Shown: one piece after another, positions 1-20,000 of the stretch | Layout of the letters: each line of letters begins with the position of its first letter | Position numbering within the stretch: the stretch's first letter is position 1 | Assembly: GCF_041146345.1 (NCBI RefSeq) | Contig: NW_027191404.1 | Location: 2,776,517-2,796,516, forward strand | Length of the DNA: 20,000 nt | From: Neodothiora populina | Taxonomy: Eukaryota | Reading direction: 5' to 3' | Notes under the pieces: generated by a model | The model's input: the letters and a program-made list of their open reading frames with translations, nothing else | Database searches by the model: none | Told to the model about the DNA's origin: nothing | Position numbers and translations under genes: made by a program

Positions 1-1600
1 GTCTGTGTTCTGACCTGGCGCAAGGTGACCTGGCGCGTTCATCACGAAGGCTTTCATAATCCATGGACGGCGAGGAGCCTCGGCTATCCTTTGAGGCATG
101 ACGTCAAGTGATATAACAATTCAAGTAGATGGTCGAAGCGAAGAAAGCAGGAAGTTAATATCGCAGAAAGATCACAATCTCTAGCTCATCGTGAGATCAA
201 CCAAATCCGAGAGAGGAGGGCATCAATGCCTCTTGAATCTATCTAAGCTCCGATGACAGCTCTAGCTGATGGATTGGCAGATGTGGGTGTTCCAATGGCG
301 CCGTCTGTGACCCTCGCACGAAGAGCGCGACATGCATGTGTCAAGCTCTGTAAAAATCGAATTATAGTGTGAGATTGCGTGCTTTGATTAAGCAGCAATG
401 GATGCATGTGATACATTGCAGATCACAGATAACTTATCAAGTTATAGTATGGCTCGCTGTCGTACGAGTGCTACTATGGAAGTATTCGTGATGAAGGCTT
501 GACTACAAGTGACTATGTATGATTAGGTCCTACCATCGTTCTACTGTACTTGGAAACGAGGTCAGAGTATGATGAATGTTGGAAATAGTGCTTTGGAGAA
601 AGTCCGTCCTGCAGAGCTGCTAGATTAGGATGAGATAGGCCCGTATTGTTCTCAGACGATACATCAGACTCGGTTTACTATCCAGATCACATTCTTCGCT
701 CTGCTATTGGGTGTTAATTACCGTCCCAGAACTGGCTTGCGACGAAATGCAATGCCCGTGGGGTATAGCTAGAGGAGCTAGCATCTCAACGCTATCAGTG
801 ACAGTTTCATACATTGACAGGGCTGACGGCAGTCGGACACAATGATGTAGAAATAAATAGCAAGTAGTATGCAGATCGTTTGGCAAGCTTACAGAGTACG
901 CGTGGTAGTAGTCACGCAGTTGATCGAATAAGGACAGCCTCGGGCGCAGACTACGTTACCTTACAGTGCTATCGGGAAAACCTCGGATGTATCTGGATCC
1001 CCTCACGGATGTCGCGCCCCTACTGAGCACCAGTCAACCTCTAGACCTTCGATCTGCATAAGTTGATTACTATGTGAGCACTGTTGATGTACCGCATCAC
1101 TGCCTGAATGCTGGACGTCGGATGCTCTTCCCACGGACCGTGAAATTTGGGGTGGAATATAAATTTCTTGTGAACACCCCTCAGGCAGAATTGGGGTATA
1201 TTGCATAAACAACGCAAGAAAATGACTACGTGTGCTCGTCGTTCAATGTATGGTATTTTGGTTTGGAGAGCAGCGCTATCCAAAAGTGCTACGAATTGAT
1301 CGCACACACTATATGGAGTCGAATGGGAGCGTCTCCATATCGCCGTTTATGTGTATATGAGGTATGGTGAGCTTACTACGTGTTTCAGCATCCAGATTGC
1401 GTGGCCACATATCATCTGCACTAAGACGAGCCATGATGATTTGTCTCCACAGGCCAGTCTTGCGAGCTCTCGACGCAGCATGATGCCATCGGGTATTATA
1501 GACCATCTTCACGACATACATAAAGCGAGAGCCGCGATGAGGCATGGTTCATTCCATCAGCTCCTTCATCTCGTTCAAGAGCCCCCTACAGCTCTCGACC

Positions 1601-3100
1601 ATGGAATTCGAAGTTGAACGACACGAAGAAAAGTACCATGGCGGAGTCAGTGAACGTCTTCATAGATTCTATCGCGGGACAACATTCCAGGCCATCATTC
1701 TTGGCTTGGTAAGTTTTACACAACCAGGAATATGGACTGCTCTGAATAGTATGTAACAAAGTTCAAAAGAGCTCAGGCAGACCAGCTGACTCGAATTAGA
1801 CCTTGGTGCTGGCGGACAAGCGTCCCCTCAAGTTGTGAATGCGGCTAATGTGCTTACTTTCGGTATCATGGTATTTTTCTGTCCCCTTTGCGCCGTCTTC
1901 GGCAATCGTTTCAATCTCAAATGGGTGCTGGTTTTCGGGACCATTGGCTACGTACCTTATTGTGCTGCTCTATACACAAACACCGTGTATGGCAATGAAT
2001 GGTTCCTGATCTTCGGCGCTGCTACATGTGGTTTCTCCGCTGCAGCATTGTGGACCGCAGAGGGCGCAATAGTCGTTGGATATCCCGAGGCCGATCGAAG
2101 AGGCTTCTGCGTAGCTATTTGGCTTGCTCTGAACAAGATCGGGTCTCTGATAGCTAGTGGCATTCAGCTAGGCCTCAACGTAGAGTCCGACAAGGCGGGA
2201 GGCATCAGTCCACAGACCTATCTCGTTCTCGTAGGTCTCACCTGCGCAGGACTGCCTCTAGCCTTCCTGCTTGCACCATCCAATAAGCTTATCAGAAGAG
2301 ACGGTAGCAGACCACATGCGAGATCGACCAAGACACCGATGAAGCAAGGATTCGCTGATTTCTGGACAGTCTGTAGAAGCAGACACATCTACATGCTCGT
2401 TCCCATCTTCATCACTGCACAGTGGGGTCAGACGTATAACGGCAACTACTTGGCCGCCTACTTCTCAGTCCGAGGCCGTACTCTTGCGGGATTAATCGTG
2501 ACACTTATCGGGATCGCGGTCAACTTCCTTGCCGGAGCCTTCATGGACTGCAAATACCTACGGCGCTCAACACGCTCGAGATGCATGTGGCTGTTCATAT
2601 TAGTCACATACGTCGGCGGCTGGATATATCAATTTTACACCCAGGCCATGTACGAGAGGCAAGATCCTAGACCAGTCTTTGACTGGTCTTCGCCTGAGTA
2701 CGGGCGGGCAATCGGGGCTTACTTCTTGTATAGGATCGGCTACGAGTGCGCAGGACCATGGATGTACTGGGTTCTGGGAACGTATGACACGGAATTTGAC
2801 ACGCTAGCGTTGACAGCCGCACTGCTTCGCGCAGGCGAGTCGCTGGGATCGGCGTGCAGTTACGGAGTTGGTGCTAGTAATGCTAGTCTCATGACGAATC
2901 TTATTGTCGCCGCCGTTGTCTGGTTCGCCTCGGTGCCGTCGGCGTCGTACAGTGCGTGGATTGTCCAAGATGTGCGCACCGGAGGAACGTTGGAGGGTAG
3001 GCTTGCAGACGACTCGTCATCATCAAGTGAGCGATGGAGAGGGGATGCTGATGGCAAGGTCGTCGAGGTTAATGGAAAGATTATCGATGGTGACGTGTAA
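1601..3100 (+). CDS. UNC-93-like (DUF895-type) MFS membrane transporter, 2 exons (1601-1748, 1800-3100), apparently intact
   Basis: A 51-nt intron at 1749-1799 (GTATGT...GCTGAC...TAG) joins the two ORFs in frame, giving GLVSFTQPGIWTALNNLGAGGQASPQVVNAAN. This motif, LWTAEGAIVVGYPE and YLAAYFSVRGRTL are typical of fungal UNC-93-like MFS proteins. Many hydrophobic helices. An in-frame upstream ATG at 1544 is an alternative start. Confidence 0.88.
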
Positions 3101-4065
3101 TCAATATCTATAATGAGTAGCGCGACTAAAAATCTTCAATATGACTACTTGTACATTGCCATCTATCAATTCATTATCGCCGCGCAATTTCGAAGATTTC
3201 ACCATTGATCCTTATTCCGGAGCCCTCTGCACCCCAAATTGAGGTAATGTAGCGACAAGCTGACGAGGATCAGGACCGTTGCAACCTTTTTCAGAAAATC
3301 GAAAGTTTTCTTCATCACCCCCGACTTACAGCGGACTCATACAAGGTGAGGCCGCTGGTTCTCATAGGGACGGGCCCAGACGCGAAAAGAACCCGAGTAT
3401 GCCATCAGACAAATCATATCAATTCAGCTGGACGTCCATAATTGCGTGATAGTACGTGGACGAGCCCATCGGCTGTTTGAAATTTGACAACAGGCTTCGC
3501 GAACATAGGTAGTTTGTCGACCCCAATACAAATGTACGCATTATACGATATCTTTGATTAAAAACATACTGTTATTCGTTAGAAAAGTAATTGGAGTCGC
3601 CTAGCGTAGAAAGGCAAACTGTAAGTAATCGTTCCAATTTTTGCTTATACAAGTAGAGTTGACCACTATTCTTAATGTGCGAACGCTTCCATTAGCACGA
3701 CGGCATATATCAAGCCATGTGTATATTCCAGAACAGGCGTTGTTATCTTTGAATCCGTGGTGTTGGTACTAGCGATCGTTGCCTTGCAGGTTCTTATCTC
3801 GTCTCACAGGGACCGTACTGATCAAGCGGCTAATGCTCCTGTGTTATGCAGACCATTCCCACCTGCCTATTATTGCAAGTGGAGCCTCTGTATCGTTCGT
3901 TCAGTCGAAGAGGTGGTAATAAAGCAACGCCGCAGCGGCCACATACATCACGCCACAGTGCAGGTACATATATTATGTCAGTCCTAGCACACCACATGCC
4001 TTGATTCTGGCTGCCTTTCAAACCGTTCCATACGTGGCACTGGTCACAAAAGCGAACACACGAGA

Positions 4066-5950
4066 ATGTCAACCGAAACGACCTTCCATGCCGATGAGCA
4101 TACGCCCCTGGTTGGAGATGATAGCCTTGATTTATCAGCGTCAAACACAGACACGTCAACCTCCAACGGGAGAGTCCCAATTAGAACACAGCTTGTCGCA
4201 ATTCTGTTCGTGTGCGTTCTCTACTTTGATGTGTACGTCTGCCCTGCACCGGAGACCAGCATCCGCGAAGAAATCATCTGCAAGACGTATTATAACCGGC
4301 TCGATAAGGCCACATCTGCGACGGATCCAGCTGAGCTTGATTGCACAGTTGATGACGTGCAGAAAGAGTTGAATCTAGTGAATCAAGTCTATGTCACCCT
4401 TACGCAAATACCAGGTAAGATCCGAACTTCAGTTGAGATTGGGGACTTGCCTGTACATGACTACATCCTATAGACACATGCATTCTAGAAGGAATGGTTT
4501 TCACGCTACAAAATCAGGGACTAAATTCTCGCAATAGGTTTCCTCCTTGCCCTTCCTTATGGCATTTTAGGTACCGGGTCTTTAGATCGATTTTATCTTG
4601 CTGAATTCCCACAATAGCCGACCGAATTGGTCGCAGAAAAAATCTCTCTCTCTGCATCGTAGGAATCACCTTATGCGACACTTTCAAATTGCTCTTTAGT
4701 AAGTAGCCACCCGGTTGCAATACTGTCATTAGCGTTGTATTAACAAGGTAAGCTTGGCAATCGGATCTCTTTCCCTTGAGAGCCATATGGCTAGCGCCTC
4801 TGTTCAGGCTTATTGGAGGTGGAGATGCCGTTGCTGCAACAGTAATTCTAGCGGCATTGGCAGACGTCTACTCAGAGGAGGAAAGGTCAGCCTTGCTGAT
4901 CATTTTGTAGACACTTGGAGGTGCTGACATATAACTAGAGCGACTGTGTTTGCAAGAGTGGCTTCGGCGGCAACTGCTTGTGAACTTTTGTCACCACTCA
5001 TCGGATCTGCCCTAATGCTGAAAAATCCGTGGATTCCAGTTGTTCTAGGATTTGCAATGCTCCCATTAGGCGTTTCTCTAACACTCATGCTGCTGCCGGA
5101 GACGCTCGTACAGCGACCGACTTTGGAAGATGGTGTTGAGGCTCGCGCCGTAGCTAAGATGCATCCATTCAAATCTCGAGATATAAGAGATCGAATCTTG
5201 GCCATGTTCGCAGAGTTTCAGCAATGTCTCGTGTCGCTGCTCGCTATTGAATATGTCACTTTCCTTCTGTTTGGTTTCTTTGCAGCTACCGTCGGTAGTC
5301 TAGCTGCTGGTTTCGAGCTGCAATACGTCCACAAGCGTTATGGTTAGGGATATGTCTACGTAAGTCTCGATTTTGCATTAGCTTTTAATCTACGGTTTAA
5401 CCTACTAAAGTCTCAATTAACATATCCTCAGGCTGGCTCTGTATTAGCTATAAGACCATTTATAACCCTTGTCGTGCTTCTGATTCTCATACCAGCAGCC
5501 ACCAAGATCCTCGTCGAGAGGTTCGGTATTGCAAGTGCTCGGAAAGATCTTCTCCTAGCACGCGCTAGCGTTGCATTACTCACTATCGGTACGCTACTCC
5601 TAAGCGTCTCCGAAGTCTCTTCCCTCGCCGTCCTGTCCTTTGTTATTTTTGCGCTCGGAAACGCCTTCCCTACCATAGGAAAAAGCTTGCTCACCACTCT
5701 CGGCCCCCCCGAAATGGCTGGAACCCTATTGTCCGCGATGAACGTCAGTGCCGCCCTTGGAGCAGTAATTGCTGGGCCAGTTATCACTGTTACCTTCAAT
5801 CTAGGTCTGAGGTGGGGCGGAGTATGGGTTGCGACGCCTTTGTTCTTCGTTACGCTACTCTATGCATTGACCTTCGGCTCCATGTGCATAATGAAGGCTC
5901 CGCACAAGCACGAGGATGATGCTAGCGAGGAAGAAGCAAGGGAGGGTTGA
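4066..5950 (+). pseudogene. MFS transporter, 6 exons (4066-4414, 4538-4570, 4618-4698, 4753-4885, 4939-5359, 5432-5950) with one premature TAG at 5345-5347
   Basis: Manual splicing at GT/AG sites gives a continuous frame: QIPGFLLALPYGILADRIGRRK (MFS motif A), FPLRAIWLAPLFRLIGGG, LADVYSEEERATVF, LQYVHKRYG*GYVYAGSVLAIRP, ARKDLLLARAS. The only lesion seen is the TAG, where family members usually have Trp (RYGW). Confidence 0.8.
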
Positions 5951-7266
5951 ATATCGAGGATATGTCAATCTTGTACTAGCTACAATGAGTGCCGAGTGGG
6001 TCAGGCGTGATCGAAACACAGTTTGAATTGATGGCATATAAACATGAGATCCCTTGTTACGGAGGGGCTAACTAGGCCCGAGTTCTGTACGCCCGACTCA
6101 ATTTCAGTCCTCTGGTGATATATTTTGATACACATCAGATCTCCGCACTGATGGCTCGAGATGTGCGGCTTATCAGAGAGTAGAGCTTCGAGAAGCAAGA
6201 ATTGGTCCGGAGTGTCTATTTATTTATTTCATCGCGATACTTCCATGCGTGTGAGGCTCCTGGCGAGTTTATCATTGCTGCTGATTGTACAGCATGTAGC
6301 TCCGTGGCAAGAAGAGCAATACGATCTATTCACGACTGTGTGATACCCACTGCATGCACTTGCGACATAACTACTACGCAGTAATTTGCGCATTTGACAT
6401 GAATTCTAAGGAAAGGCAACGGTCTCATGGGGCCAGCTTCAATGGCTTCTAGGCTGTTTTCGACTTACTTGTGCAGTACCTGCAATACGCTAGCAGCGTC
6501 AACTCAAGCTTGGTGCATCAATCATTTATACCTCTTCTGGGATTGAAAAGAATTGAGAAGAGCGTGTACAAACTTCTGTTGTCGTCTCCTCGACTCTTAA
6601 AGATCTACTTCCCGTTTTAGGAAATAAAAAATGAGCCCTGTGAAAGATTACAGAATCTCCTCGATAATTATGCTACAAAGATAAGCGTTCGGCACGAAAC
6701 TCTGTTCGAAGAGATATATGGGCTAGCGCCATAACGTTGTCATGAATGACTTGGCATGCGAATTAAGGTGTAATTAGCTGCGCTGCAAGATAAGGTAGAG
6801 TACCTTAACCTTGAAGGTAAGGTGTGTTGCCGAGCTCCGGTGAGGGTCATCCATCGCTACTATGCAGCTGCAGCTTCGATATGTACGTCCACTGATACTG
6901 TAACATGAGTGGCCAATACTGACAAAACAACTGCTGGGAGTAGTCTGGTAGTATTGTAGATGACTCAAGTAATAGAACTTCGGTGATCTCCGTCAAATAG
7001 GTGGCGCGAGTCGACAGACATGGTAGGTGGCAGTGGGCGCTTTCGAGCTACTCAGCCCACGCTTGTCTGTGAATGCTGCGACGAAGACAAATAGGTCAGC
7101 CAAATCATAGCCATCCGCTACTTTGGCCTCTACGCGACAGCCAGCCGTCTGCTTCAGCCATACATCACATCTCTTCCAGTCGAACATCTTGCACTGCACC
7201 TTTGATCAATCTAAGAAACCCTTGATGAGAGTAGGAATCGGAAATGCGTGAATAAACAGACTAACT

Positions 7267-10200
7267 ATGAGTTTCCGTTGCCCGCACGATGCGGACCATT
7301 CCTTCGGCCCTCGTGTGTCACCAGAGTGTCGTTCCTTCGATTTTACCCTGCTCTTCGAGCCACAACTAAAGCCTTCACCAATATAGTCATTGATCACGAT
7401 GTATATGGTCACCAACTTAGTATCACTCGTCTGCATGGGCACTGCGCAGATCCCTAAGATGCGTACCACTGTGCTGGCCACAACACTCGATTTGATAGTG
7501 GCGGCATGCATGCTTCCTCTATCGCACCTTGAGCATGTCAAAACTTTCAGACCATCTAGTCTGCTCTGCGCCTTTTTATTCATGGCTCTGCCTCTCAACA
7601 TCGCGCAGACCCGCACTTATTGGCTATTTCCCGACCAATGGACGGTTTATGCCGCATGCTATACTGCAACTTTCACGCTTAAGGCCCTCATTTTGATTCC
7701 GGAATAATCATGGGATAAGACTCGGCTGCTGTCGACAAGTGACCGAGAGAGAAGTCCCGAGGAGAGGGCAAGAATCCTCAAGAGAAGAGTATTCGTTTGG
7801 CTCATGTCCTCTTCATCAAGGGTTTGCGGAACAGCTTCAGCTTTAGCGATCTCTATGCCGCCGATGAAGCCTTGCGCTCTCGAGTGCTTTCTGAACGACT
7901 GCAAAGGTCTTGGGGTATCAGTAGTAAGTACTTGATTGAGACACATGCATTTTGATACATTTTCTCACGCGGAACATCAGGCCACAAAGGACGCTACGAT
8001 TTAGCTTGGTCAATGTTTCGAAGCTTGTTATGGCCACTGCTGCGGCCAATAGCCCCACACTTGATTCTCATTGCCTTCAAGTTCTCCCAGCCTTTCCTTG
8101 TTCAAAGAGTGTCGGATTACCTCAGTCATAGTGATGCAGCTAGTGATGCCGTGATCGGTCATGGCTTGGTCGGCGCTTACGGTCTGGTATACATCGGACT
8201 AGCGGTGAGATACGCTGTGATGTGCTTTAGGCGAAGACTAATATGTTGCCCAGGTTAGCAAAGGTTGCTACTGGCACTATCAATATCGTTTTATCACAAT
8301 GGTGAGAGGTGCTTTGGTGAGCATTATTTACCAGAAAACCCTCTCTGTCGATGCAGCTTTAGTGTCCGGCTCGCAAGCCACCACATTGATGAGTGCTGAC
8401 ATCGAACAAATCGCTGTCGGACTCCAGTCGTTGAATGAGCTTTGGGCGAATTTTGTAGAAGCCATTGTGGGGCTGTGGCTTTTGGAGCGACAGATTGGTC
8501 TATCGTTCTTAGCAGCGGCCATCATAGCAATAAGTGAGCCTTACAAGAATTGCAACAAGAAAGCACTGCTGATCCTTTCCAGTCTGCGCAGTCCTTGCGT
8601 CGATCGTTGCTGGCGTTGCTGCATCTCGTCAGAAGCACTGGTTAACGGCAATGGAGCGACGAATACACGAGACCACAAGATTCCTGCAATCCAGCAAGAG
8701 CATTAAGATGCCGGGTCTCGAAGACAAGGTGTCGGAGACCATTGCGTCACTGAGAGCAGCTGAACTTCGGAAGGGCGTGCATTGGGTTAGTCGGACTATC
8801 CATCTATGGAGGACACGATGTCTTGACAAAGAACCATTCCCGCACAAACCTCAGCTGGCCATGGTGCACTAGCACTAGGTAAGCAAGCTATCTCGGAAGA
8901 ACCGAATCATCAGCTGACACCGTAAGCCTTTATACCCCAGCTTCTAGGACCCCCTGTCGTGTTCGGTCTGTTCATCTTCACACAAGAAGAGTGACGCAGC
9001 ATTAAACACCATACGTCTTTTCGGATCACTAGCTATTCTGTCATTGGTAACGATCCCCCTCAACAATCTCTTTCAAACGCTAACAGCAGTGAGTGCAGCT
9101 TTCAGTTGCCTTTATCGATTTCAGACTTATCTGCGACTTGCCGATGTCAGAGATACCCGAGATGTCAACAAGCCAGATGTCTCAATCGTGGCTCAATCGG
9201 TGGAAAACGCAACTCCGGCATTCACAATCCGTAATGGCGCATTCTGTTGGAAGGCTGATACCCAACCAGTCCTGCAGAATGTCAATTGCTCGCTGCTACG
9301 TGGCAAGTTGACGTTACTGATCGGCCCTGTCGGTTGTGGGAAGTCGACACTCCTGCAAGCACTCCTCGGAGAGATGGTTCCAGCTCGAGGTGTCGTTGAA
9401 CACTCGGCCTCCAAGATTGTCTTCTGTGCGCAGGATCCGTGGCTGACAAATTCGACGATTCGCTCGGCCATTATCGGAGCCTCAGATGTTGATGATGAGT
9501 GGTACACAACTGTCTTGAACGCGTGTGACTTGACTGAAGACATGGCTAGTGTGCCGAGAGGAGATAACACTGTTACAGGAAGTTCGGGAAGCGCATTGAG
9601 TGGTGGACAAAAGCAAAGACTGGTGAGTCACTCTCTGCAGACCCTGTATTCCTAAATCCTCCTTTCGGCTTCGTTGACCTCGCCAGACACTCGCACGAGC
9701 AATTTACTCTAGGGCACCTGTATTCTTGTTAGATGATATTCTCAGTGGCCTCGATAGGCGCACAGAAGAACGCACCTTGGCAAATCTTTTCAGCCCCGAC
9801 GGACTGCTTAAGAAGGCGCTCCAGAGCACAGTAGTTCTTGTTACTCATGCTAGTAGGTCTTGCTGCCCACTATCGAGCTCAATCTCTGACAGTCATATAG
9901 AAAGACATCTTAGGTTAGGCGATCATGTTGTTGCGATAAATGCGGCCGGCAATGGGACCAAGGATGGTCCCCCGAGTCACTTCGAGAATTGTATGGATAT
10001 GATTTTACGTGACAAGTCCCACGATGACGAGACGTCGCAACCTGCATTAAACTTCATGAGCATGCTTGTCAGTCAGCAAGCGGGTCAAGCACCGGAACTA
10101 CCAACAGAACCCATAATTATCGAAGACACGACTCTTGGACTTTCCGACGGCGAAGTGTTTCTTCATTACCTTAGAGCCGTCTCTGTTCCATTGTTTTTCC

Positions 10201-12354
10201 GTTCATTTTAGGATTAGCCATTGCCGGCTTTCCGGAAAGATTTCCTAGTAGGCTCCTCCTCCCTCAGCCTTCCATTTCGTTATGTTTAAGTCCGAAGTTA
10301 ACTTCAGGCCCCGAAACGTATCTCAGAGGAGTGCTTGGTTAGGCTGACGACTTTCAACCTTTTAGCATACAGGTCCCAAGTATGGGGTGAAGCCAACGAA
10401 AAAGCTCCAGGATCTTCGAACAACAGATTTTATTGGGGTGTCTTTACTCTACTTCAATTACTCGCATTGATCGATGTGCTTTGGGCAGTATGGTGGGAAT
10501 ATTTGCAAACCGTGTCTCGTTCTTAGAAGCCTCTAATACTTGCAGGCATCTATTTATGTTCATCATCCCTAGGTCAGGTAAACGTCTACATGGTTAGTAG
10601 CTCTATCTATATACCCTTCCATGAAACCATGAGATTGTTCTATGTCTGTCACTAAATACGAATGCAGCGGAATTACTAGCAGCTGTTCTAGGCGCGTCAC
10701 CCGCATTCCTCAGCCGAATGGATGTCGGAACCATTACGAACAGGTTCCCGCAAGATCTGCTACTAATAGACACTCGGCTGCCAATTTCACTCCTCAACTC
10801 TGGTTCTTATCTGGCGGCAGCCATCGTAAGGCTCGCTCTGATAGCTTCGGCGTCGGTGTTGATATTGGCCACTGCTCCTTTCCTCTTTGCGGTACTCTAC
10901 CTGGCCCAAAGATTCTACCTTCGCACCTCAAAGAGCATGAGGCTGTTCGATCTCCTGGCCAAAGCGCCCCTGTGTTCACACTTTCCTGATGCGCTTAAAG
11001 GCTTGGCGACCATCCGCGGCTTCGGGTGGACGGAGAAGCTCCGAGCTGACAACGATATACTGCTCGACACATCTCAACGGCCGTACTATCTCACGTACTG
11101 TATTCAGCGTGAGTACCACTATGCGTCGGCTTGTCGAGATATTGATCACTGACACAATTCCTGTGCAAGTTGGTTGACATGCGTTCTGGACCTCGTGGTT
11201 GCCGGCCTCGCCGTCACGGTCATGGGACTCGCAGTGGCATTTCGGCATAGAGGGAGCGCACCTACTTTTGGTTTGGCCTTACTGAATCTCAGATCTCCCG
11301 GGTCAACCCTTGAGGCGGTCGTCACAGAGTACACTCAGCTCGAGACATCGAATGGGCCTGATGCAAGGATCAAGAACTTTTCCGATACCACGCCACGAGA
11401 AGCTACTACTACTTCATAGGGCGCTGCTGTTGATACTTTCCCAGAAGGAGGTATAGAGCTCTTCGAAACCTCTGAAGCCAACCATACTGTTGTGGAATTC
11501 AAGAATGTGATCGCAACTTCCGGGTAAGTGATGTGCCATCGATAGATCAACAAATTTAAACGTCTTCGGATGCGTAGCTCAAGCGGACGAAGAGTACTCG
11601 ACGGCCTGTCTCTGAAATCCCGCACGGGCGAGAAATTGGCCATCTGTGGGCGAAGCGGAAGGTCGGAACTCTCTTTGTTTTTGGAATCCGAGATGATGGC
11701 CATGTTTCTGACTCGATGACAGTGGAAAATCAACCTTACTTCAGGTATTGCTCAAAATATTGGACGTTTCCGAGGGTAGTCTCGTGGTCCTGGGAAAGGA
11801 CACCACATACATACCACCGCGTATCCATCGTAAAAGGTTCAATACGATTCCCCAAGAATCATACTTCTTTCAAGGCACCTTTCGAGAGAATCTGACCCGT
11901 GGCGATGACGTCCGCGACGATCTAATTTTACGAGCCCTCAGTAAAGTCGGTTTGCAGCAGAAAGTCCTGGGCCTTGGTGGAATTGATCATGATCTCGAGC
12001 CAGAAACGTTCTCGTCGGGCGAGTGTCAGCTCCTATCCCTAGCTAGAGCAATTCTGCATCCCACCAAGATTCTCTTGCTTGATGAAGCGGCGAGCAGGTA
12101 AGTGCCAGCCCTAGTTTTTTTTCTTACCATGATCAATTTCCTTCCATCTGAGTGCAGCCACTAATAAATGCAGTGTCGATGCCAAGACGGACAAGAAGAT
12201 GGACGACATCATGTGGGAAGAATTCAAGTCAGACACCATTATTGCCGTGTTACACAAGCAGGAGGCGTTACACCGCTTTGATCGTGTGATCATCCTCGAT
12301 CAAGGCAAGATCGCGTATCAAGCGCGACCTCCTGAATTGCAGCTTGCAAATTGA
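7267..12354 (+). pseudogene. ABCC/MRP-type ABC transporter pseudogene (TMD0-TMD1-NBD1-TMD2-NBD2), multi-exon
   Basis: N-terminus MSFRCPHDADHSFGPRVSPECRSFDFTLLFE is typical of fungal ABCC proteins. NBD1 has Walker A GPVGCGKS (9323-9346), signature LSGGQKQR and Walker B LLLDD. NBD2 has Walker A GRSG/SGKS split by intron 11662-11722, and ILLLDEAAS/SVD. Ends ...DQGKIAYQARPPELQLAN at TGA 12352-12354. In-frame stops at 7384-7386, 7705-7707 and 11417-11419; apparent frameshifts near 7804, 8985 and 10200. Confidence 0.9.
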
Positions 12355-13802
12355 TGTGACAGCGAGCGACTATCGAGCATAAACAGCATACTATGCACAG
12401 ACATAAATTCATATGGCGCAGCGCAGAGGTCTCGAATTTGTCAAAGTGAAGTAGCTTATGCTGTGTCCATTACCACTTCGGCTTCAAAGGATTAAGATCT
12501 TGTCTTTTATCTTCCTTCCACTGATATACATTCTGATATCATGCAGAGCAAATCTATAAAGAGTGCTCTCGTAAAGCACGTGCATATGTAGTTTGCTGAA
12601 GTGGTTTCCGTCGAGCTTGAACCTGATTATGTAGGACTTGCCAGTCCTCTTGTATGTTGTCTAATCTTGCACGACCGAACCATGGCGCCAGCTGATCTGC
12701 GATCCTTATAACATTATAGAGCATTGCTATTCACCTGTATCCTTGTCCGGATGTTTGAGATTGTGGGCAACCCTCTGACGTGGCCCACGATGACATCTTG
12801 CCTCCCATGTAGCCAGTGTATGTCAAAACAAAGCTACGAAGCAATACCCTCGGATCCAAGACCAGCTTTTGGAGTCTTGCGCAGGGTCATACGTGCAGGT
12901 AAGCAGCGCTAGGAGAAGGACGACGCAACAGCATATTGCGGTATTTGTATGTCCAGACGATGTTAAGGTTGAAGAAAAGTCTGGGCTTAGTATAGGAAAA
13001 CCAAAACGAGCGAAAGGCTGCGAGGGGATGCCGTAAGTTGTAGTGGAAGACATTGTTACTATCATGTCGTTGACAGGACTACTTGACTTTTATTCATCAC
13101 TCATGTTGGAAGCAGTCAGTCTGCTGTGGAGTTATGTATGATGTGGTACAAAATTGCTGTGGGAGAAGTGGAATCGAGCAATAATCTTAGAAGCGGAGAC
13201 GTATATAATCAAAATGGATTAGCTGCAAGACAAGTGCATCTAGGATGACTATAAATCGCAGATCACTTTGCCCGTTCTGCCGATTCCGTATAGGACGCCG
13301 AGGTTCTGCATTGTTCGGCATGAGCTTCATATAATATTTGCAGGTCAACTTAGATCTACAGTACCTCAGGTGTGCAAACCAGGCGACCCATGTTGCACCG
13401 ATAGGACCTGATCAGCTAATTTGCAATACAGCTCAAAATCCATTGGCGTCTACAGGGTGAATGATCAAAAAGTGCTACAAGATTTATCGCTGCTGATCTT
13501 GATCACTTTCTGGGATATGAGTCTACAGGATTAAGATGCTAATGCAAATGACATACATGACTTTGAATATCTCCAATACCTTAGTATGAATGTCCACAAC
13601 TCATGCAGTTGTAAAACAGAGATTAGGTGAGCTACAAAGAAACTTCTAGCAATGCAATACTGTAGACCTCAGATATCTGTACTAGAGTATGAATTTCTAA
13701 GCTATAGAGAAAGTAACACCACGTTGATCGTTTCCCGCTAGACGTCCATCCTCAAGCACAGAAACTCCTCTCAATTCCTGGATCCGTCCTATGAAAATAC
13801 AT

Positions 13803-14879
13803 TTAAGAGGAAGAGACACACTGCGAGTAGTAAGGGTTCTGCTCCTTGCAGGTGGAGCCTGTGACGCAAGTGGTGGCACCAGTGTAACCGGAACCACCAC
13901 ACTGGCCGTATAGAGCAACAGAGCCAGAGACAGTGGTTGCGGTAGGGGTAGCGCTAGCTGCTGAGGTCTTGACCAAGGTGGCCAGGGTGGTGGGGGCAGC
14001 GGAGGAGACAGGGGTAGCGCTGGCAACTGATGTCTTGACCAAGGTGGCGAGAGTGGTAGGGGCAGCAGAGGAGACAGGGGCAGCAGAGCTGGTAGCAGGT
14101 GCGGGGGCAGAGGAGGTGGCAGCGACAGCGCTGGAGGAGACCACAGCAGCCTGGGTGTTGACAGCAGAGGAAGAGGCACCAGACCAGACGGGAGGGCCAG
14201 GAATGGGGTAGCTAGTGAAGCCGTTGTAGATGTCGAAGTGAATACCGGCATCAGTGGCCTTGTATGCGCCAGGGATGCTGACACCAGCGGGGAGGCTGGT
14301 GGCACCGGAAGAAGTGATTTTGACCTGGACACACTCCATGTAGAGCTGGGCGCCTCCGAGAGTACCACCCTCGTGAAGGGCGATGATCTCAGCACGGAGA
14401 AGGTAATTTCCAGCGGTGATGTCGGGGATAGTGATGGAGTGCTTGCCTTTGTTGGCAATGAGGGTATCAACAGCCCACTGCTTGGTGCTGGCATCGTAAC
14501 CATCCTCGGCGATCTTTACCCAGCCACTGCCGGAAGAGCCGGTGTCGGTAGGGGCGATGTAGACCATAACAGGGCCCTTGTGGGAAGAGGCAATGATATC
14601 GTCAGACTCGCTGCGGCTGTCATGGTGCCATTCAAAGGTGAACTTGTCGCCGGCAGCAACGGACAGAGTCTTTGCGGTGGCAACGTTGTTGACATTGCAG
14701 GTCATGTCCGAGGAGGTCACGTCCTTGACGGGGTTGTTGTTGGGAGGAGACCTGATGTAACCAGCAGCGGTGTTGCCGAGACCTTGGTCGACATCATTGA
14801 TCCAACCAGCGTAGATGGTGGTGTGGGCGAAGGCCAGCTTCGCGGAGGCAATAAGAGCAATCAATGCAGCATTCTTCAT
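13803..14879 (-). CDS. Secreted AA9 (formerly GH61) lytic polysaccharide monooxygenase with Ser/Thr/Ala linker and C-terminal CBM1; intronless, intact
   Basis: Signal peptide [18 protein letters not shown] is followed by His1 (HTTIY). Second copper His in [16 protein letters not shown], and Q-x-Y in [13 protein letters not shown]1 [32 protein letters not shown] has four Cys. Strong C/T-ending codon bias. Confidence 0.97.
13944..14080 (-). repeat. Tandem 66-bp duplication in the LPMO linker (2 x 22 aa, [16 protein letters not shown][V/A]ASATP)
   Basis: Copies at 13944-14009 and 14010-14075 align without gaps and show 8 mismatches in 66 nt. Confidence 0.92.
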
Positions 14880-14986
14880 TTTTAAAGAGAGTGGGAGTCT
14901 AAAAGACCAAAGAGTGACTAGAAGGAAAGACTAATTTTTTTTTGAATGGATGAAGATGTCTTGGAGAAGAAGAAAGACTATACATC

Positions 14987-14993
14987 TTATATA
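14987..14993 (-). promoter_or_regulatory. Probable TATA box of the AA9 gene
   Basis: TATATAA on the minus strand about 110 nt upstream of the ATG. It is followed by a CT-rich tract, an A-run and an AAAAATG start context. Confidence 0.55.
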
Positions 14994-16850
14994 CCTACCA
15001 GGTCCACGATATCTGAATTGACAGTCCCAGCACTGTTAGCGGCTTAGGAGATGATGGTCAGTCCTGGCATCCATAACAAGCATTGCCAAGGCGTGTCATT
15101 GCCCCTTCGCCTGCTCGCGTAGGTGGCCGTTCATCCAGGATTGTAAATGTTGCTTCATCCCGCCTCCGCCTCCATGTACATTATGGCATTTCGTATAGTT
15201 AGTGCCTTGGCCCTGCTTCTGTGGTCGTTGCTACCGGTACTACACTGACTAGGCGGCTCCCACGATGCACACAACGGATCTTGTCCTAGACACAGACCAT
15301 GTGTCGATACTTAATCACATCGATTGAGACAGGAAAGGAAATGCTGCGAGACCTAGCACAGCGCCTAGGCAGGTCAATAGCTTGGCTGCACTTGGCAATG
15401 TTGCAAATGGAAGAATTACTACAGGAGCGTTCCTACAGATCAAAGTCGAGGAGCGCCTTTCATATAGCGTAGTGCACAAAGTGTGCCCATTGCTGAAGGG
15501 CCAAGGTAGTAAATCAACCGAGGAGTTTCATGATATCTCCTATATAACGCCACCGGCGGGTCGAAGCTTATAATGTCTTGGCGGCTGAATCTGAAACTCA
15601 ATCGCTTAGACATGAAACATCCAGGACCACCCCACAAGAGACGCACTTCGGGGCCCAGATGCTTTGCGTTTGCCGCCCTTATTAGTTCATCGTATCCATC
15701 ACTATAACCACCACTCTCACTAGTGTGCCGCACACAAATCGGCCTCTCGGTCAAAACGTCATCCTCTCTCCCCTGAGTCTAGTTTTCCTCGCTTCGTCTC
15801 GTACAACCTTGCAAGGCCTTACTATGTGATAACTCACACTATCAGATAGCGTGGCAGCGTAGCAGCGTGATAAAATTCTATTCTCGTGTTTGAAGGCGCT
15901 AGGACGTCGCGAGATGACACATAGCAGGAAGCGGATCAGGCACGGCATCGCGCCGTTAGCTGCGCTGCAGTCTTCTTGCGGATTAGTCGAGACCTGGCCT
16001 GGTCGGCGAAGAAGCTTTAGCCGGTCGGGCCTCTCGCTTGCTCCTCGCAAGATCCTAATCGACGCTTAAATGAGGTCGGTAAGAGCAGTAGCGCTTAGAA
16101 ATTGTGTTCTTGCAGCCTCAAGATATATACAGTGGGTATCCTACACCACGACGAATTTAGAAAGCTTGCTTCCAACTTCATCAGTCAACTTTATCGTGCT
16201 CTAGCGTGGACAAAGTGATAATGCCACGATGCACAGCAGTCATAAATTCAAGAACGGCGGCACGCATATTGTCAATGGACTTATTGTATATCCACGATTG
16301 ATTAGAGAGAAACTCCTTAGGGATATTCCCACGTCAATTGCTTCACAATCGTGAGGAAAGGATTGATATGAAAGTGTTTGTTGTCGCGACGTGTATCTCC
16401 ACATGTGGATCGTTGTCATCGCTAATCGGAAAGCCTGCGAAGACCTACTACTACACGCGTGTACGTCGCAGTTGATGAGAAAAGCTCGCAATGCGAGCTA
16501 GCCAAGTACAGAGGCGATGAGGGTAACTTATTTGTCGCTGCCGGTCGCAGAAGCCTAGGCACACGAACATCACTCTCTGCCTCGCGACTACTGCATCAAG
16601 GAACAAATCAGAGAATACTAAGGTAGGACACAAACACCACCTGACGCGCTCTTAGAATTCACAGTCGCATGCAGAGCCCGTATCGTAGCGTTGTATTCCC
16701 TATAGACATGGAAAAGACCTTAGAAGGCGACAGGACGACTCTAGGAGCGGCTGGCCACGACAGATTCCAAAACATCAATTTGCTTTCTCTTATACACACG
16801 ACAGGGATGCCCTCTTCAGAGGCACGTCTGAGTATCAAGAACAGATCTAC

Positions 16851-17141
16851 ATGGACACTGAGCAGGTCAAGCTTGAAGTACAGGAGATGCTCGACGACGC
16901 CCTTCTCGACTTCAAGATGGCAGTCGAAGAGGGTCTCAAGGATATCGATGGGCATGTCGAGAAGCACTCCTGTGCTTTGATCTCCGAGATTGAAGAGTAC
17001 GAGCAAAGGGCCGCGCACATCGAGCTTGACCTCGATGCCTCCAAGTCTTCACTGCTGCGGCTTGCCCAGACTTTGTTTCAACCTGCAAGACGCTCAAGCG
17101 CCACCGTAGAGCCGACAGCGCCCAGAGGCAAATCCGTGTAG
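16851..17141 (+). CDS. Hypothetical small acidic, coiled-coil-like protein (possibly the last exon or remnant of a longer gene)
   Basis: 96-aa ORF with helical, E/D/L-rich composition and coding-like codon usage. The frame stays open upstream to 16689. No family recognised. Confidence 0.4.
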   Translation: MDTEQVKLEVQEMLDDALLDFKMAVEEGLKDIDGHVEKHSCALISEIEEYEQRAAHIELDLDASKSSLLRLAQTLFQPARRSSATVEPTAPRGKSV

Positions 17142-19192
17142 TTGACATTCCCTGCTTATGAAGATGTAGTGTAATGTGCTTCGCTCTAGCCTTGCCGCGC
17201 ATCGAGCGGTCGTGATGATGAGCCGTGATCATCAGCGCTCCTTTTAGGGGGACTAATCGTTGTTCTTTGTAGTATTGCTATCGCGTCCTGTCTCCCGTGA
17301 CATCGACCACAGTACGAGTGCTTACTATGCCAGGACGACTACACCTCTGACTATGGTGCAGCGCCAGATGGCGACAATCATTCTGTCGTGGCCGGAAGTC
17401 CGCTCCGCAAGCTTCACATGTTCGCAAAGCGGGAAACCGCCACAATCCTGCCAAGCTCGCCACGGCTCGAGCTTGAACACCAACATCGTCGTAAGTGACT
17501 CGCCCGCTGTGCACTAGGTTTTTTGACCGCGCATGACTAGAACACTCGTACAAAGTCACACGCAGCGGTGTCTACATACGATCTGTAGCGATCGATGCAA
17601 TATTTAGACGTCGTAAAGCGATAGCGACTACACAAGCCTGTCGGGCAGAGATGCACGCGCGACTGAGCGCTCCACCGCGACAGGGACGGAAGAAGCCGAC
17701 GCTCATCTCACCAAAACGATGGGATCATGCTCTTTATCCTAGCTACGCGAGCGATTACATTGGATGAAAGGACTCCGTTTGTGAGCGGTTATGGAACATG
17801 TCATCTGGTCTGGGAAGCTGCCCCTGTAGTAATATGACTCGATGGCAGTAAGCTGGCCGAGCTACTGTATAGCGGAGCTGCCTGTGCGGAACTGCAACAG
17901 CGAAGGCGGCCTTGGCGGAGATACTGCCACAGCGGAGATCCCAAGTGCCGTCGTCACCGCGAACGCTCTTTCTTCCAACACCATGCAAGACGTCCATCCA
18001 GTCACCTTGTTGTAGAATGCTGATGATTATAGAGTATTCCTGTCATCTTATCATCCTATCATAAACGCTGTGTAATTGAGAAATTACTGATATTGCAATT
18101 TTCTGTAGAGAAAAGTCTTGTCCTCTTAAATTCTTCAAGCTCCTAGCGGCGCTTGCAAATTGAGTTCACCGCGCCCAAATTCTCACACCAACTCTCATCA
18201 GCGCCATCATCAACTTCGCAGATCTGAAGGCATTGACATCAATAACGGCTAACTTTGCGTATCTAATGATAAATTGATAGCCATAGCTAGACATTGTCTC
18301 CTCATTACCTTTCCAAGAGCAATGCTTCTTACTTGTACAACCGACCAGGGTCGCCCTGCGTAATGATCTACAACCATCTTCAGTGTGATGGTCGACATAT
18401 TATTAATACATCACGATTGCCCTCGTAGCTCGCTTGGCAGAGAAATATGGCACCAGAGATGTTTCTTCGGCCTTCCAGTCTACAACTTATTGGCTTACAG
18501 TTGATCGTCTAACGGCAGTGGAAGCGGACATGTGGCGTTGTTGACCTTCCGACCTTGATCAATGGTTTCTGCTTGTCAACATTGGCTCAAGCTCCGTGCT
18601 TGGGAATATTGTCCACCTGATCTGCCTATTAATCATGCTACATACTATTTGGCTTGATGTTCCCATCCGCGTTCGCAATGCCATGCGTCGTGTGGTTCTC
18701 GATCTACCGTGAAACACCTATAAGCCAGGTGAGGAATGCGAGCTGTCTATATATGAGGAGACAACTTACCACGCTCATTAGCTGGTATTACGCTCCAAGG
18801 CGTGGGGACTCAGTACGTTGATATATGGAATAGCTACACAGCTGTTGTTGGGCGCCACAGCTGCTAGAACCTACCTTTGAGGCAAGAATTCCGGGCCACG
18901 GTGCTTTGACGCTCGCAAAGTGCTCATGTTCTTTACAAGGTGAGAAACGAACGACTTCACAGGGCTTGTCTTCCGTATGCCCGGAAGAGTAAAGAATTAT
19001 TCTAGAGTAGCTATGCATGATGGCTCCAGTGACTAGTCGTACTAGCGACCAGATCGCAGCAATCAAGATAGCCGCTGTGAGAAGCACGGGAAGAGCGACT
19101 TCTGCCGCCTACTACCATGGCCTTGTACCTCACTGTACGCAATTATCTAATCCTGTTGCAATCCGCATACCAGAGGCGCGATCCGTTTACAC

Positions 19193-19612
19193 TTACATAA
19201 TCCGTCCATTACTATAATGGAAAATTGGCGCTACTGGGGCTACAGTGCAGCGTAGGCGCCCAAGGAACGTCGACAACTTCGTTTGTATGAGGTCACTATT
19301 CGAAGGGATTTTACCATCATCAAAGTCTTCGGTTGGCCCAGCCAGCTCGACAGCGTCAAAGTACACGGCTCGGCAGAGGAGTGTGTCGTTGCTTGACCAA
19401 TATTTGGTATCACCAGGAGCTGTTTTTGTCTGATAGAACATCTTACTCAATAGATATCTGGCGTTTCTGTAGTCCTGTACATCTTGCAAGTACCCAAAGC
19501 AAGAAAGAGCATATGTAGTTGGAACTGCGTGATAGTAATCAAAACGAGTGATTTGATAGCAAACATCCGGGTCTGTGAAAATTACGATGTACAAATGAAC
19601 GATGTTCAGTAG
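19193..19612 (-). other. Possible exon or remnant of an unknown gene
   Basis: About 140 codons of open frame with protein-like composition and no ATG at its 5' end. It ends over a GTAAGT donor-like site (19191-19196). No recognisable domain, and I could not splice a convincing continuation. Confidence 0.25.
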
Positions 19613-19761
19613 CTAAGATGATGCAAATACTTCATCCCTAGGTGGACATGATGTGCTTCAATTCCATCGTCCCTTGGCAAGACGTGATTCGATATCAAAT
19701 CCTTGTTGTGTTGTAAGGAACCACAGCTGATTCAAGTTGCGCCATACATCAATGAGTAGCT

Positions 19762-19866
19762 TCAAGCGATTTCGAACCACTTATCCATCAATAGCTGTTC
19801 TGCTGTTGGTCTATCTCTTGGATCCATCTTCATGATCCTACATATGAAGTCCTTATCATCTTGTGT
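19762..19866 (-). pseudogene. 3' terminal fragment of a Ser/Thr protein kinase gene (subdomain XI and stop), 5'-truncated by the telomere
   Basis: The minus strand translates as TQDDKDFICRIMKMDPRDRPTAEQLLMDKWFEIA*. This matches the kinase C-lobe end pattern DFIxxxxxxDPxxRPTAxxLLxxxWF, including the invariant subdomain XI Arg. Confidence 0.85.
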
Positions 19867-20000
19867 AGGGTTAGGGTTAGGGTTAGGGTTAGGGTTAGGG
19901 TTAGGGTTAGGGTTAGGGTTAGGGTTAGGGTTAGGGTTAGGGTTAGGGTTAGGGTTAGGGTTAGGGTTAGGGTTAGGGTTAGGGTTAGGGTTAGGGTTAG
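19866..20000 (+). repeat. Telomeric (TTAGGG)n array, chromosome right end
   Basis: TAGGG + 21 x TTAGGG + TTAG, a perfect 135-bp array running to the end of the window, with the G-rich strand 5'->3' toward the end. Confidence 0.99.

What the first reader, a model, noticed from the sequence alone, without database searches (positions are those of the whole stretch)
19762..20000. Telomere array joined directly into a protein kinase coding sequence: candidate healed chromosome break (de novo telomere addition)
Seen: immediately inside the perfect TTAGGG array, the minus strand encodes TQDDKDFICRIMKMDPRDRPTAEQLLMDKWFEIA*, with no spacer and no degenerate repeats at the junction (...TCATCTTGTG/TAGGGTTAGGG). 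Known: this is the subdomain XI tail of eukaryotic protein kinases, whose domain is roughly 250 aa or more, so the promoter and most of the gene would lie where the telomere now is. Telomerase can heal breaks using only a few nt of seed homology. Inference: the chromosome broke inside this gene and was capped, losing or relocating the distal arm. The fragment has no stops or frameshifts, consistent with a recent event. Any seed appears to be only 1-2 nt (T or TA).
Basis: partly seen in the sequence, partly recalled or inferred. Interest (0 to 1): 0.82.

Follow-up and report, generated by a model that had tools for sequence, protein, structure and literature searches.

The report
Telomere capping a truncated fungal kinase
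A chromosome of this fungus ends inside a protein kinase gene, with telomere repeats joined straight onto the last tenth of the coding sequence, which is a clean example of a well-known way in which fungi repair shortened chromosome ends.

Summary
A perfect 135-nt TTAGGG array (19866-20000) abuts 34 minus-strand codons plus a stop. These are the last 33 of about 312 positions of a fungal Ser/Thr kinase family (186 relatives, best E 1e-9). The cut is mid-exon: relatives run on for about 1 kb upstream, so about 90% of the gene is gone from this end. The seed is T or TA. In a public run that may be the source DNA, the end is single-copy, and one paralog (83% identical) runs on past the junction; no repeated subtelomeric unit was seen. 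A near-identical strain in another sample has a contig running 90 letters past the tail, which a perfect array cannot give in that assembly type. So it is probably not capped here, but its letters were not shown. Best reading: terminal loss healed by telomerase (0.8), probably strain-level (0.6). 'No stops' says little about age, and loss of a whole arm is unsupported. The event type is well documented in Pyricularia and Zymoseptoria. New instance, known kind; interest 0.2.

The parts
19866..20000 (+). Perfect (TTAGGG)n telomere array, 22.5 units, G-rich strand running to the end of the window
19762..19866 (-). 3' remnant of a fungal Ser/Thr protein kinase gene: 34 codons and the TGA stop; last 33 of about 312 family positions
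19866..19867 (+). Junction and telomerase seed, T or TA. The native sequence cannot plausibly include 19868 (G here; the family codon needs A on this strand in 77 of 80 loci)
14901..19760 (.). Context: 4.9 kb between the remnant and the next recognisable gene, with no Pfam hit in six frames read through stops; single-copy in run X1
13803..14879 (-). Context: AA9 lytic polysaccharide monooxygenase with CBM1, open frame of 358 codons; the last recognisable whole gene, about 5 kb from the telomere

Best explanation
This chromosome once ran on through an ordinary kinase gene pointing toward the centromere. The end was lost, by a double-strand break or by telomere failure with resection, back to a point about 280 codons into the gene, in the middle of its last exon. 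Telomerase then extended the free 3' end from a terminal T (or TA) and laid down a new perfect TTAGGG array. The promoter, start codon and catalytic core went with the lost piece, leaving a 34-codon relic. Shown: identity of the relic, the mid-exon cut, seed length, single copy in X1. Inferred: telomerase as the agent (from junction anatomy and literature), non-expression, loss rather than relocation of the distal piece, and a strain-level date (about 0.6, resting on run X2). How much DNA lay beyond is unknown; at least about 1 kb.
For: Homology runs to the last unique base and stops; no spacer or degenerate repeats. In relatives the frame is open for >=65 codons upstream of the cut in 77 of 80 loci, and the start lies 922-1073 nt upstream in the 71 of 80 loci with an N-terminal hit. 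247-295 residues precede this column in 17 full-length proteins. The preceding residue is I/L/V in 93 of 101 usable hits (of 150), whereas the array reads Pro in frame, which limits the seed to 1-2 nt. In Magnaporthe 19 of 24 de novo telomeres grew from 1-4 nt seeds (PMC7367193, passages). Run X1: one 15,240-nt contig at flat depth 31.9 matches 13000-19858 with 0 differences and ends 27 letters later, within the 37 letters that junction plus perfect array allow at k=31. Run X2 (other sample and study; 1 difference in 1,143 letters over six records): a 187-nt contig matches 19762-19858 exactly and carries 90 more letters on the telomere side. All 31-mers in Logan contigs are distinct by construction (PMC12424806), and none of 185 simulated walks passed 37 letters, so these 90 letters cannot be junction plus perfect array. 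A paralog in X1 (71 of 86 letters; the 5 listed of 15 differences are all synonymous third positions) runs on for 697 letters, so a family copy remains. The family tolerates loss: 5 of 45 distinct relative tails have in-frame stops and 2 more have deletions.
Against: No read or contig letters across the junction were seen: the read-laying tool scored nothing past 19858, so both the X1 and X2 arguments rest on contig lengths. X1's 27 letters are below the simulated mode of 35-36, and only a minority of simulated runs ended before 33 (the simulation lacks Minia's graph clean-up). X1 may be the source of the assembly and is not independent. X2 rests on one contig of depth 4.5, and its extra letters could be something other than kinase. 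A 1-2 nt in-register seed occurs at 68% of random positions, so it fits telomerase but does not prove it. No whole genome was held, so the other chromosome ends and the fate of the 5' part could not be examined.
Confidence: 0.8

Rival explanations
1. Assembly artefact or minority molecule: the assembler joined a telomere to a contig end, or followed a few reads with a newly added telomere, while most nuclei carry the longer chromosome.
For: Letters past 19858 in X1 were not shown, and its contig stops short of the simulated mode. A near-identical strain appears to continue (X2).
Against: If both forms were common in X1, the graph should branch at the junction and the contig end about 9 letters past 19858; it runs 27. 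If X1 continued with unique DNA as X2 seems to, a 15-kb contig at depth 32 has no evident reason to stop there. The assembly agrees with X1 at all 6,859 letters laid, and the AA9 gene of this window lies on a 2.8-Mb contig.
Confidence: 0.08
2. Capture, then capping: an internal piece ending in the kinase tail was copied or moved onto a failed chromosome end (break-induced replication or end joining), and the telomere was added afterwards. The intact gene would then sit at an internal donor site.
For: This route is described for Pyricularia telomere-adjacent sequences (PMC8381367, Results part 1). Synteny with other strains could not be tested.
Against: [quoted passage not shown] In X1 the stretch is one contig at flat single-copy depth, and only an 83% paralog was laid on the tail.
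Confidence: 0.05
3. Fission or translocation: the break was internal and the distal part, carrying the 5' 90% of the kinase, survives elsewhere in this genome, possibly capped by its own telomere.
For: Nothing direct. Telomere formation at internal breaks is inferred in Pyricularia.
Against: A piece without a centromere is lost unless joined to another chromosome (established knowledge). The neighbourhood (transporters, a CAZyme, 4.9 kb without a Pfam hit) looks like an already subterminal region (inference).
Confidence: 0.05
4. Standard subtelomeric repeat: the kinase tail is part of a unit found at many chromosome ends.
For: The family occurs in more than one copy in this genome.
Against: At 80% likeness only two X1 records were laid on the tail: the locus itself and one paralog that runs on for 697 letters. 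Depth is flat at single-copy level. None of 80 related loci has two or more tandem telomere units.
Confidence: 0.02

Closest known systems
Simple terminal truncation with de novo telomere formation in Pyricularia (Magnaporthe) oryzae (PMC7367193, passages; PMC8381367, abstract, passages and Results part 1 of 5)
   Same: TTAGGG array added directly to non-telomeric DNA from a 1-4 nt seed (19 of 24 events; a single T sufficed). Junctions are often private to one strain (331 of 689). Subterminal genes such as AVR-Pita are lost by truncation.
   Different: No MoTeR element, rDNA or interstitial telomere was seen at this junction. The gene hit is an uncharacterised kinase. No progenitor-progeny pair is available, so the event is reconstructed, not observed.
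Chromosome breakage with de novo telomere formation in Zymoseptoria tritici during vegetative growth (bioRxiv 10.1101/304915, passages)
   Same: Same fungal class (Dothideomycetes). 12 of 15 breaks in five strains were healed by new telomeres, with subtelomeric deletions of about 0.2-60 kb.
   Different: Those events arose in culture under heat stress and were mapped against a progenitor. Here the size of the loss and whether it arose in nature or in culture are unknown.
Pezizomycotina Ser/Thr kinase family of about 305-335 aa (Pfam PF00069), annotated 'serine/threonine protein kinase', 'kinase-like protein' or hypothetical (e.g. P0010, P0017, P0037, P0176, P0237)
   Same: The C-terminal D-K-x-F-I-x-x-x-M-x-x-D-P-R-D-R-P-T-A...W-F segment at 60-80% identity; stop codon in the usual place; profile score ranks 24 of 46 among relative tails.
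   Different: Only the last 33 of about 312 positions are present; no ATP-binding lobe, catalytic loop or activation segment remains in the window.

Membership tests
Terminal truncation healed by de novo telomere addition | Canonical telomere array, G-rich strand outward, at the sequence end | tested here: met
Terminal truncation healed by de novo telomere addition | Array joined directly to DNA that is normally internal (continues in relatives) | tested here: met
   Frame open >=65 codons upstream in 77 of 80 related loci; start about 1 kb upstream in 71 of 80. These are family members, not shown orthologs.
Terminal truncation healed by de novo telomere addition | Short in-register seed of 1-4 nt, no filler DNA | tested here: met
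   T or TA; not discriminating, as 68% of random positions offer a 1-2 nt seed
Terminal truncation healed by de novo telomere addition | Junction supported by reads that span it | tested here: inconclusive
   X1 contig ends 27 letters past 19858, compatible with the array, but the letters were not shown
Terminal truncation healed by de novo telomere addition | An untruncated allele exists in another strain or the progenitor | tested here: inconclusive
   X2 contig has 90 letters past 19858, too many for a perfect array; letters not seen; one contig of depth 4.5
Terminal truncation healed by de novo telomere addition | Distal DNA absent from the rest of the genome | not testable with these tools
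   No whole genome held
True subtelomeric repeat (shared by several chromosome ends; definition as in PMC8381367) | Duplicated at two or more ends | tested here: not met
   Single contig at flat depth in X1; the only other record on the tail is an 83% paralog that runs on for 697 letters. The tool's filter leaves some records out.
Protein kinase family PF00069 (as a gene remnant) | C-terminal helix and DP..RP.A..L...W segment at the end of the domain | tested here: met
Protein kinase family PF00069 (as a working gene) | ATP-binding lobe, catalytic loop, activation segment, start codon | tested here: not met
   No other part of the family profile matches in the six frames of the window; next hit iE 6

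The most novel reading that the evidence does not exclude
The truncation is a live polymorphism: a near-identical strain (run X2) keeps the longer chromosome end with the whole kinase, while this strain lost it and has its AA9 cellulose-oxidase gene and transporters about 5-18 kb from a new telomere. The pair would be a natural knock-out of an unstudied fungal kinase and a natural test of telomere-induced silencing of neighbouring genes, in a species of Dothideales rather than a model fungus. In the boldest form, the 5' 90% of the gene survives at another chromosome end as the reciprocal product of a fission (about 0.05).
Probability: 0.45. Interest if true: 0.35.

Novelty: new member of a known kind. 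Interest (0 to 1): 0.2.

Why it matters
It is a base-exact record of telomerase healing from a 1-2 nt seed inside a gene. It adds one more fungus to those whose chromosome tips are trimmed and re-capped. If the second strain is indeed uncapped here, the two strains give a ready comparison for the size of the loss and for position effects on the AA9 gene. It does not suggest a new mechanism or open a standing question that Pyricularia, Zymoseptoria or Neurospora do not already serve better.

Tried and rejected
Whole-genome search: no genome held. Word-index protein searches with the tail found no candidate at longer or near lengths. These are false negatives, since phmmer found 186 relatives, so they say nothing about whether X2's product is on record. 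An exact 24-base pattern from the tail had 0 matches in metagenome contigs. The 80 related metagenome loci share no flank with window 1-19761 at blastn E<=1e-4, so no ortholog locus was found. Expression: no RNA holder listed. X3 looks like spliced RNA of the same sample (its loose end differs from X1's at a GT donor; my reading) and has no cover on the tail or on the AA9 gene proper; this is not evidence either way. RIP: dinucleotide indices per kb show no RIP-like block (TpA/ApT 0.63-0.95). Junction at an exon boundary: rejected. ESM Atlas on the tail gave unnamed short clusters first and a Pkinase cluster at 0.87, a lead only; on ORF 16689-17138 nothing. PDB searches meant to confirm breaks in the ABC transporter gave no ABC match. 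PMC10412453 (passages) did not bear on the case. Five paper searches used no species name, so I do not claim that this junction is absent from print. Supplementary tables of seeds in PMC7367193 were not opened. No structure or complex prediction was run: a 34-residue relic offers nothing to fold.

Full report
Setting. The window is the last 20 kb of a fungal chromosome-scale contig. Its AA9 protein is on record on a contig of 2,796,516 bases. It clusters with a protein that the source names Neodothiora populina, on a contig of the same length, identical but for a 20-residue gap (Dothideomycetes, Dothideales). Other genes are MFS and ABC transporters. No whole genome was held.

The observation. 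Bases 19866-20000 are a perfect TAGGGT array of 22.5 units. The nearest stray hexamer in unique DNA is at 17244. The minus strand from 19866 reads TQDDKDFICRIMKMDPRDRPTAEQLLMDKWFEIA and stops at 19764-19762. Pfam Pkinase matches positions 236-263 of 263 at E 3.5e-4, under the curated cut-off. The 60 shown of 81 PDB matches are all protein kinases, best E 0.0029. phmmer over 1.84 billion representatives gives 186 hits at E<=1e-3, best 1.0e-9. The longer hits are Pezizomycotina Ser/Thr kinases of about 285-335 residues. A profile of 16 relatives places the remnant at positions 279-311 of 312 and finds nothing else in the window (next hit iE 6). It scores 57.8 bits against at most 6.8 in 1000 controls.

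Anatomy of the cut. In 80 related metagenome loci (the best 80 of 144 confirmed) the frame stays open upstream of the column where the telomere begins: for at least 30 codons in 78 loci and at least 65 in 77. The start lies 922-1073 nt upstream (median 994) in the 71 loci with an N-terminal hit. So the cut is inside the last exon, and about 280 codons plus the promoter are missing from this end. The residue before the cut is I, L or V in 93 of the 101 hits with a single usable motif (of 150). This fits Magnaporthe, where 19 of 24 new telomeres grew from 1-4 nt seeds and one T sufficed (PMC7367193, passages). It is not diagnostic, since 68% of random positions in the window offer a 1-2 nt seed.

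Is the junction real? Three public runs were laid on 13000-19890. All are k=31 contigs, and the tool scored nothing past 19858, so no letters across the junction were seen. X1, which may be the source DNA, gives one 15,240-nt contig at depth 31.9 that matches 13000-19858 without a difference and has 27 letters left. [quoted passage not shown] A contig entering a perfect array here can run at most 37 letters past 19858: the error-free walk gave 37, and none of 185 simulated walks exceeded it. The 27 letters are allowed but lie below the mode of 35-36; a minority of simulated runs ended earlier, and the simulation leaves out Minia's clean-up. A mixed population should have broken the contig at the junction itself, about 9 letters on. 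I rate an artefact at 0.08.

Is it a repeated unit? At 80% likeness only two X1 records lie on the tail: the locus and one 1,893-nt paralog contig at single-copy depth (28.7), 71 of 86 letters alike. The paralog runs on for 697 letters past 19858, so it is not capped there. The 5 listed of its 15 differences are all at third codon positions and, by my reading, synonymous. Its loose end reads, by hand, W-F-G-L-P-stop, with the stop in the same register as the window's and the same ending as P0005. None of the 80 related loci holds two tandem telomere units. A standard subtelomeric repeat is unlikely, and so is a recent copy of an internal donor, which in Pyricularia mostly leaves a second copy (PMC8381367, Results part 1). 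The tool's filter leaves some records out, so this is not proof.

How old? The tail ranks 24 of 46 against a profile of full-length family tails, so it shows no decay. The better hint is X2, another sample and study, probably DNA, with 7 records laid; six are at 99% or more and differ at 1 of 1,143 letters. Its 187-nt record matches 19762-19858 exactly and has 90 further letters on the telomere side. By the k-mer bound these cannot be the junction plus a perfect array. The simplest reading is that this near-identical strain is not capped at 19866 and continues, presumably through 30 more kinase codons. That would make the truncation younger than the split of two almost identical strains, possibly even an event in culture. 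The letters were not shown and the contig has depth 4.5, so I give this 0.6.

Mechanism. Shown: a canonical array joined without filler to mid-exon DNA at a 1-2 nt seed, single-copy in X1. Inferred: the end was lost by a break or by telomere failure with resection (these cannot be told apart), telomerase re-capped it, and the distal piece was lost. The remnant lacks promoter and start and should not be expressed. The loss is easy to bear: a paralog remains, and 5 of 45 distinct relative tails have in-frame stops, with 2 more carrying deletions. Nothing shows that an arm was lost. The 4.9 kb without a Pfam hit and the transporter and CAZyme neighbours suggest a region already near the end (inference).

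Comparison with what is known. In Pyricularia 331 of 689 telomere junctions were private to one strain, and nested terminal truncations are common. In Zymoseptoria, the same class, 12 of 15 breaks in five cultured strains gained new telomeres after deletions of about 0.2-60 kb (10.1101/304915, passages). This scan's own unchecked notes list the same anatomy in another fungus, Naegleria and Giardia; they show recurrence and are not support. The case meets three defining features of healed terminal truncation; two are inconclusive and one could not be tested. My five paper searches did not use the species name, so I make no claim that this junction is unpublished.

Verdict. Real, correctly read in the main, and ordinary: a new member of a known kind. 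Best explanation 0.8; artefact 0.08; capture then capping 0.05; fission with the 5' part kept 0.05; subtelomeric repeat 0.02. Interest 0.2. The most novel open reading, a live polymorphism giving a natural knock-out and position-effect pair, has probability about 0.45 and would deserve about 0.35.

Noticed in passing
window 7250-12355 (+): ABC transporter of the MRP/ABCC type (two ABC_tran and one ABC_membrane Pfam hits) that looks broken: an in-frame stop at 7705-7707 and an apparent change of frame near 7803, judged from a recalled family pattern. PDB searches on these pieces gave no ABC match, so this is unconfirmed.
   Followed up: partly
window 16689-17141 (+): Stop-to-stop frame of 150 codons whose second half looks helical and protein-like; no Pfam hit and no usable Atlas hit. 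Possibly a gene remnant.
   Followed up: partly
window 13803-14879 (-): AA9-CBM1 gene with a 66-bp tandem duplication in the linker (13944-14084). The named cluster representative lacks 20 linker residues that the open frame here encodes, perhaps an intron called inside the repeat.
   Followed up: partly
run X1, record 3: A paralog of the truncated kinase in the same sample, 83% identical over 86 letters, on a 1,893-nt contig that ends about 690 nt upstream of the cut column, short of the expected start codon.
   Followed up: partly
L005, L026, L027, L039, L065, L029, L043: Members of this kinase family in metagenome contigs with in-frame stops or deletions in the C-terminal segment (7 of 45 distinct tails): the family seems to be often pseudogenised.
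   Followed up: no
window 1790-3100 (+) and 3988-5950 (+): Two MFS-type transporter genes; the first has MFS_1 and UNC-93 hits, the second gave no significant Pfam hit on the exons tested.
   Followed up: no
window 17860-18013, run X3 record 12: A 175-nt contig of depth 2.4 that switches strand at 17977/18013; probably a library chimera.
   Followed up: no
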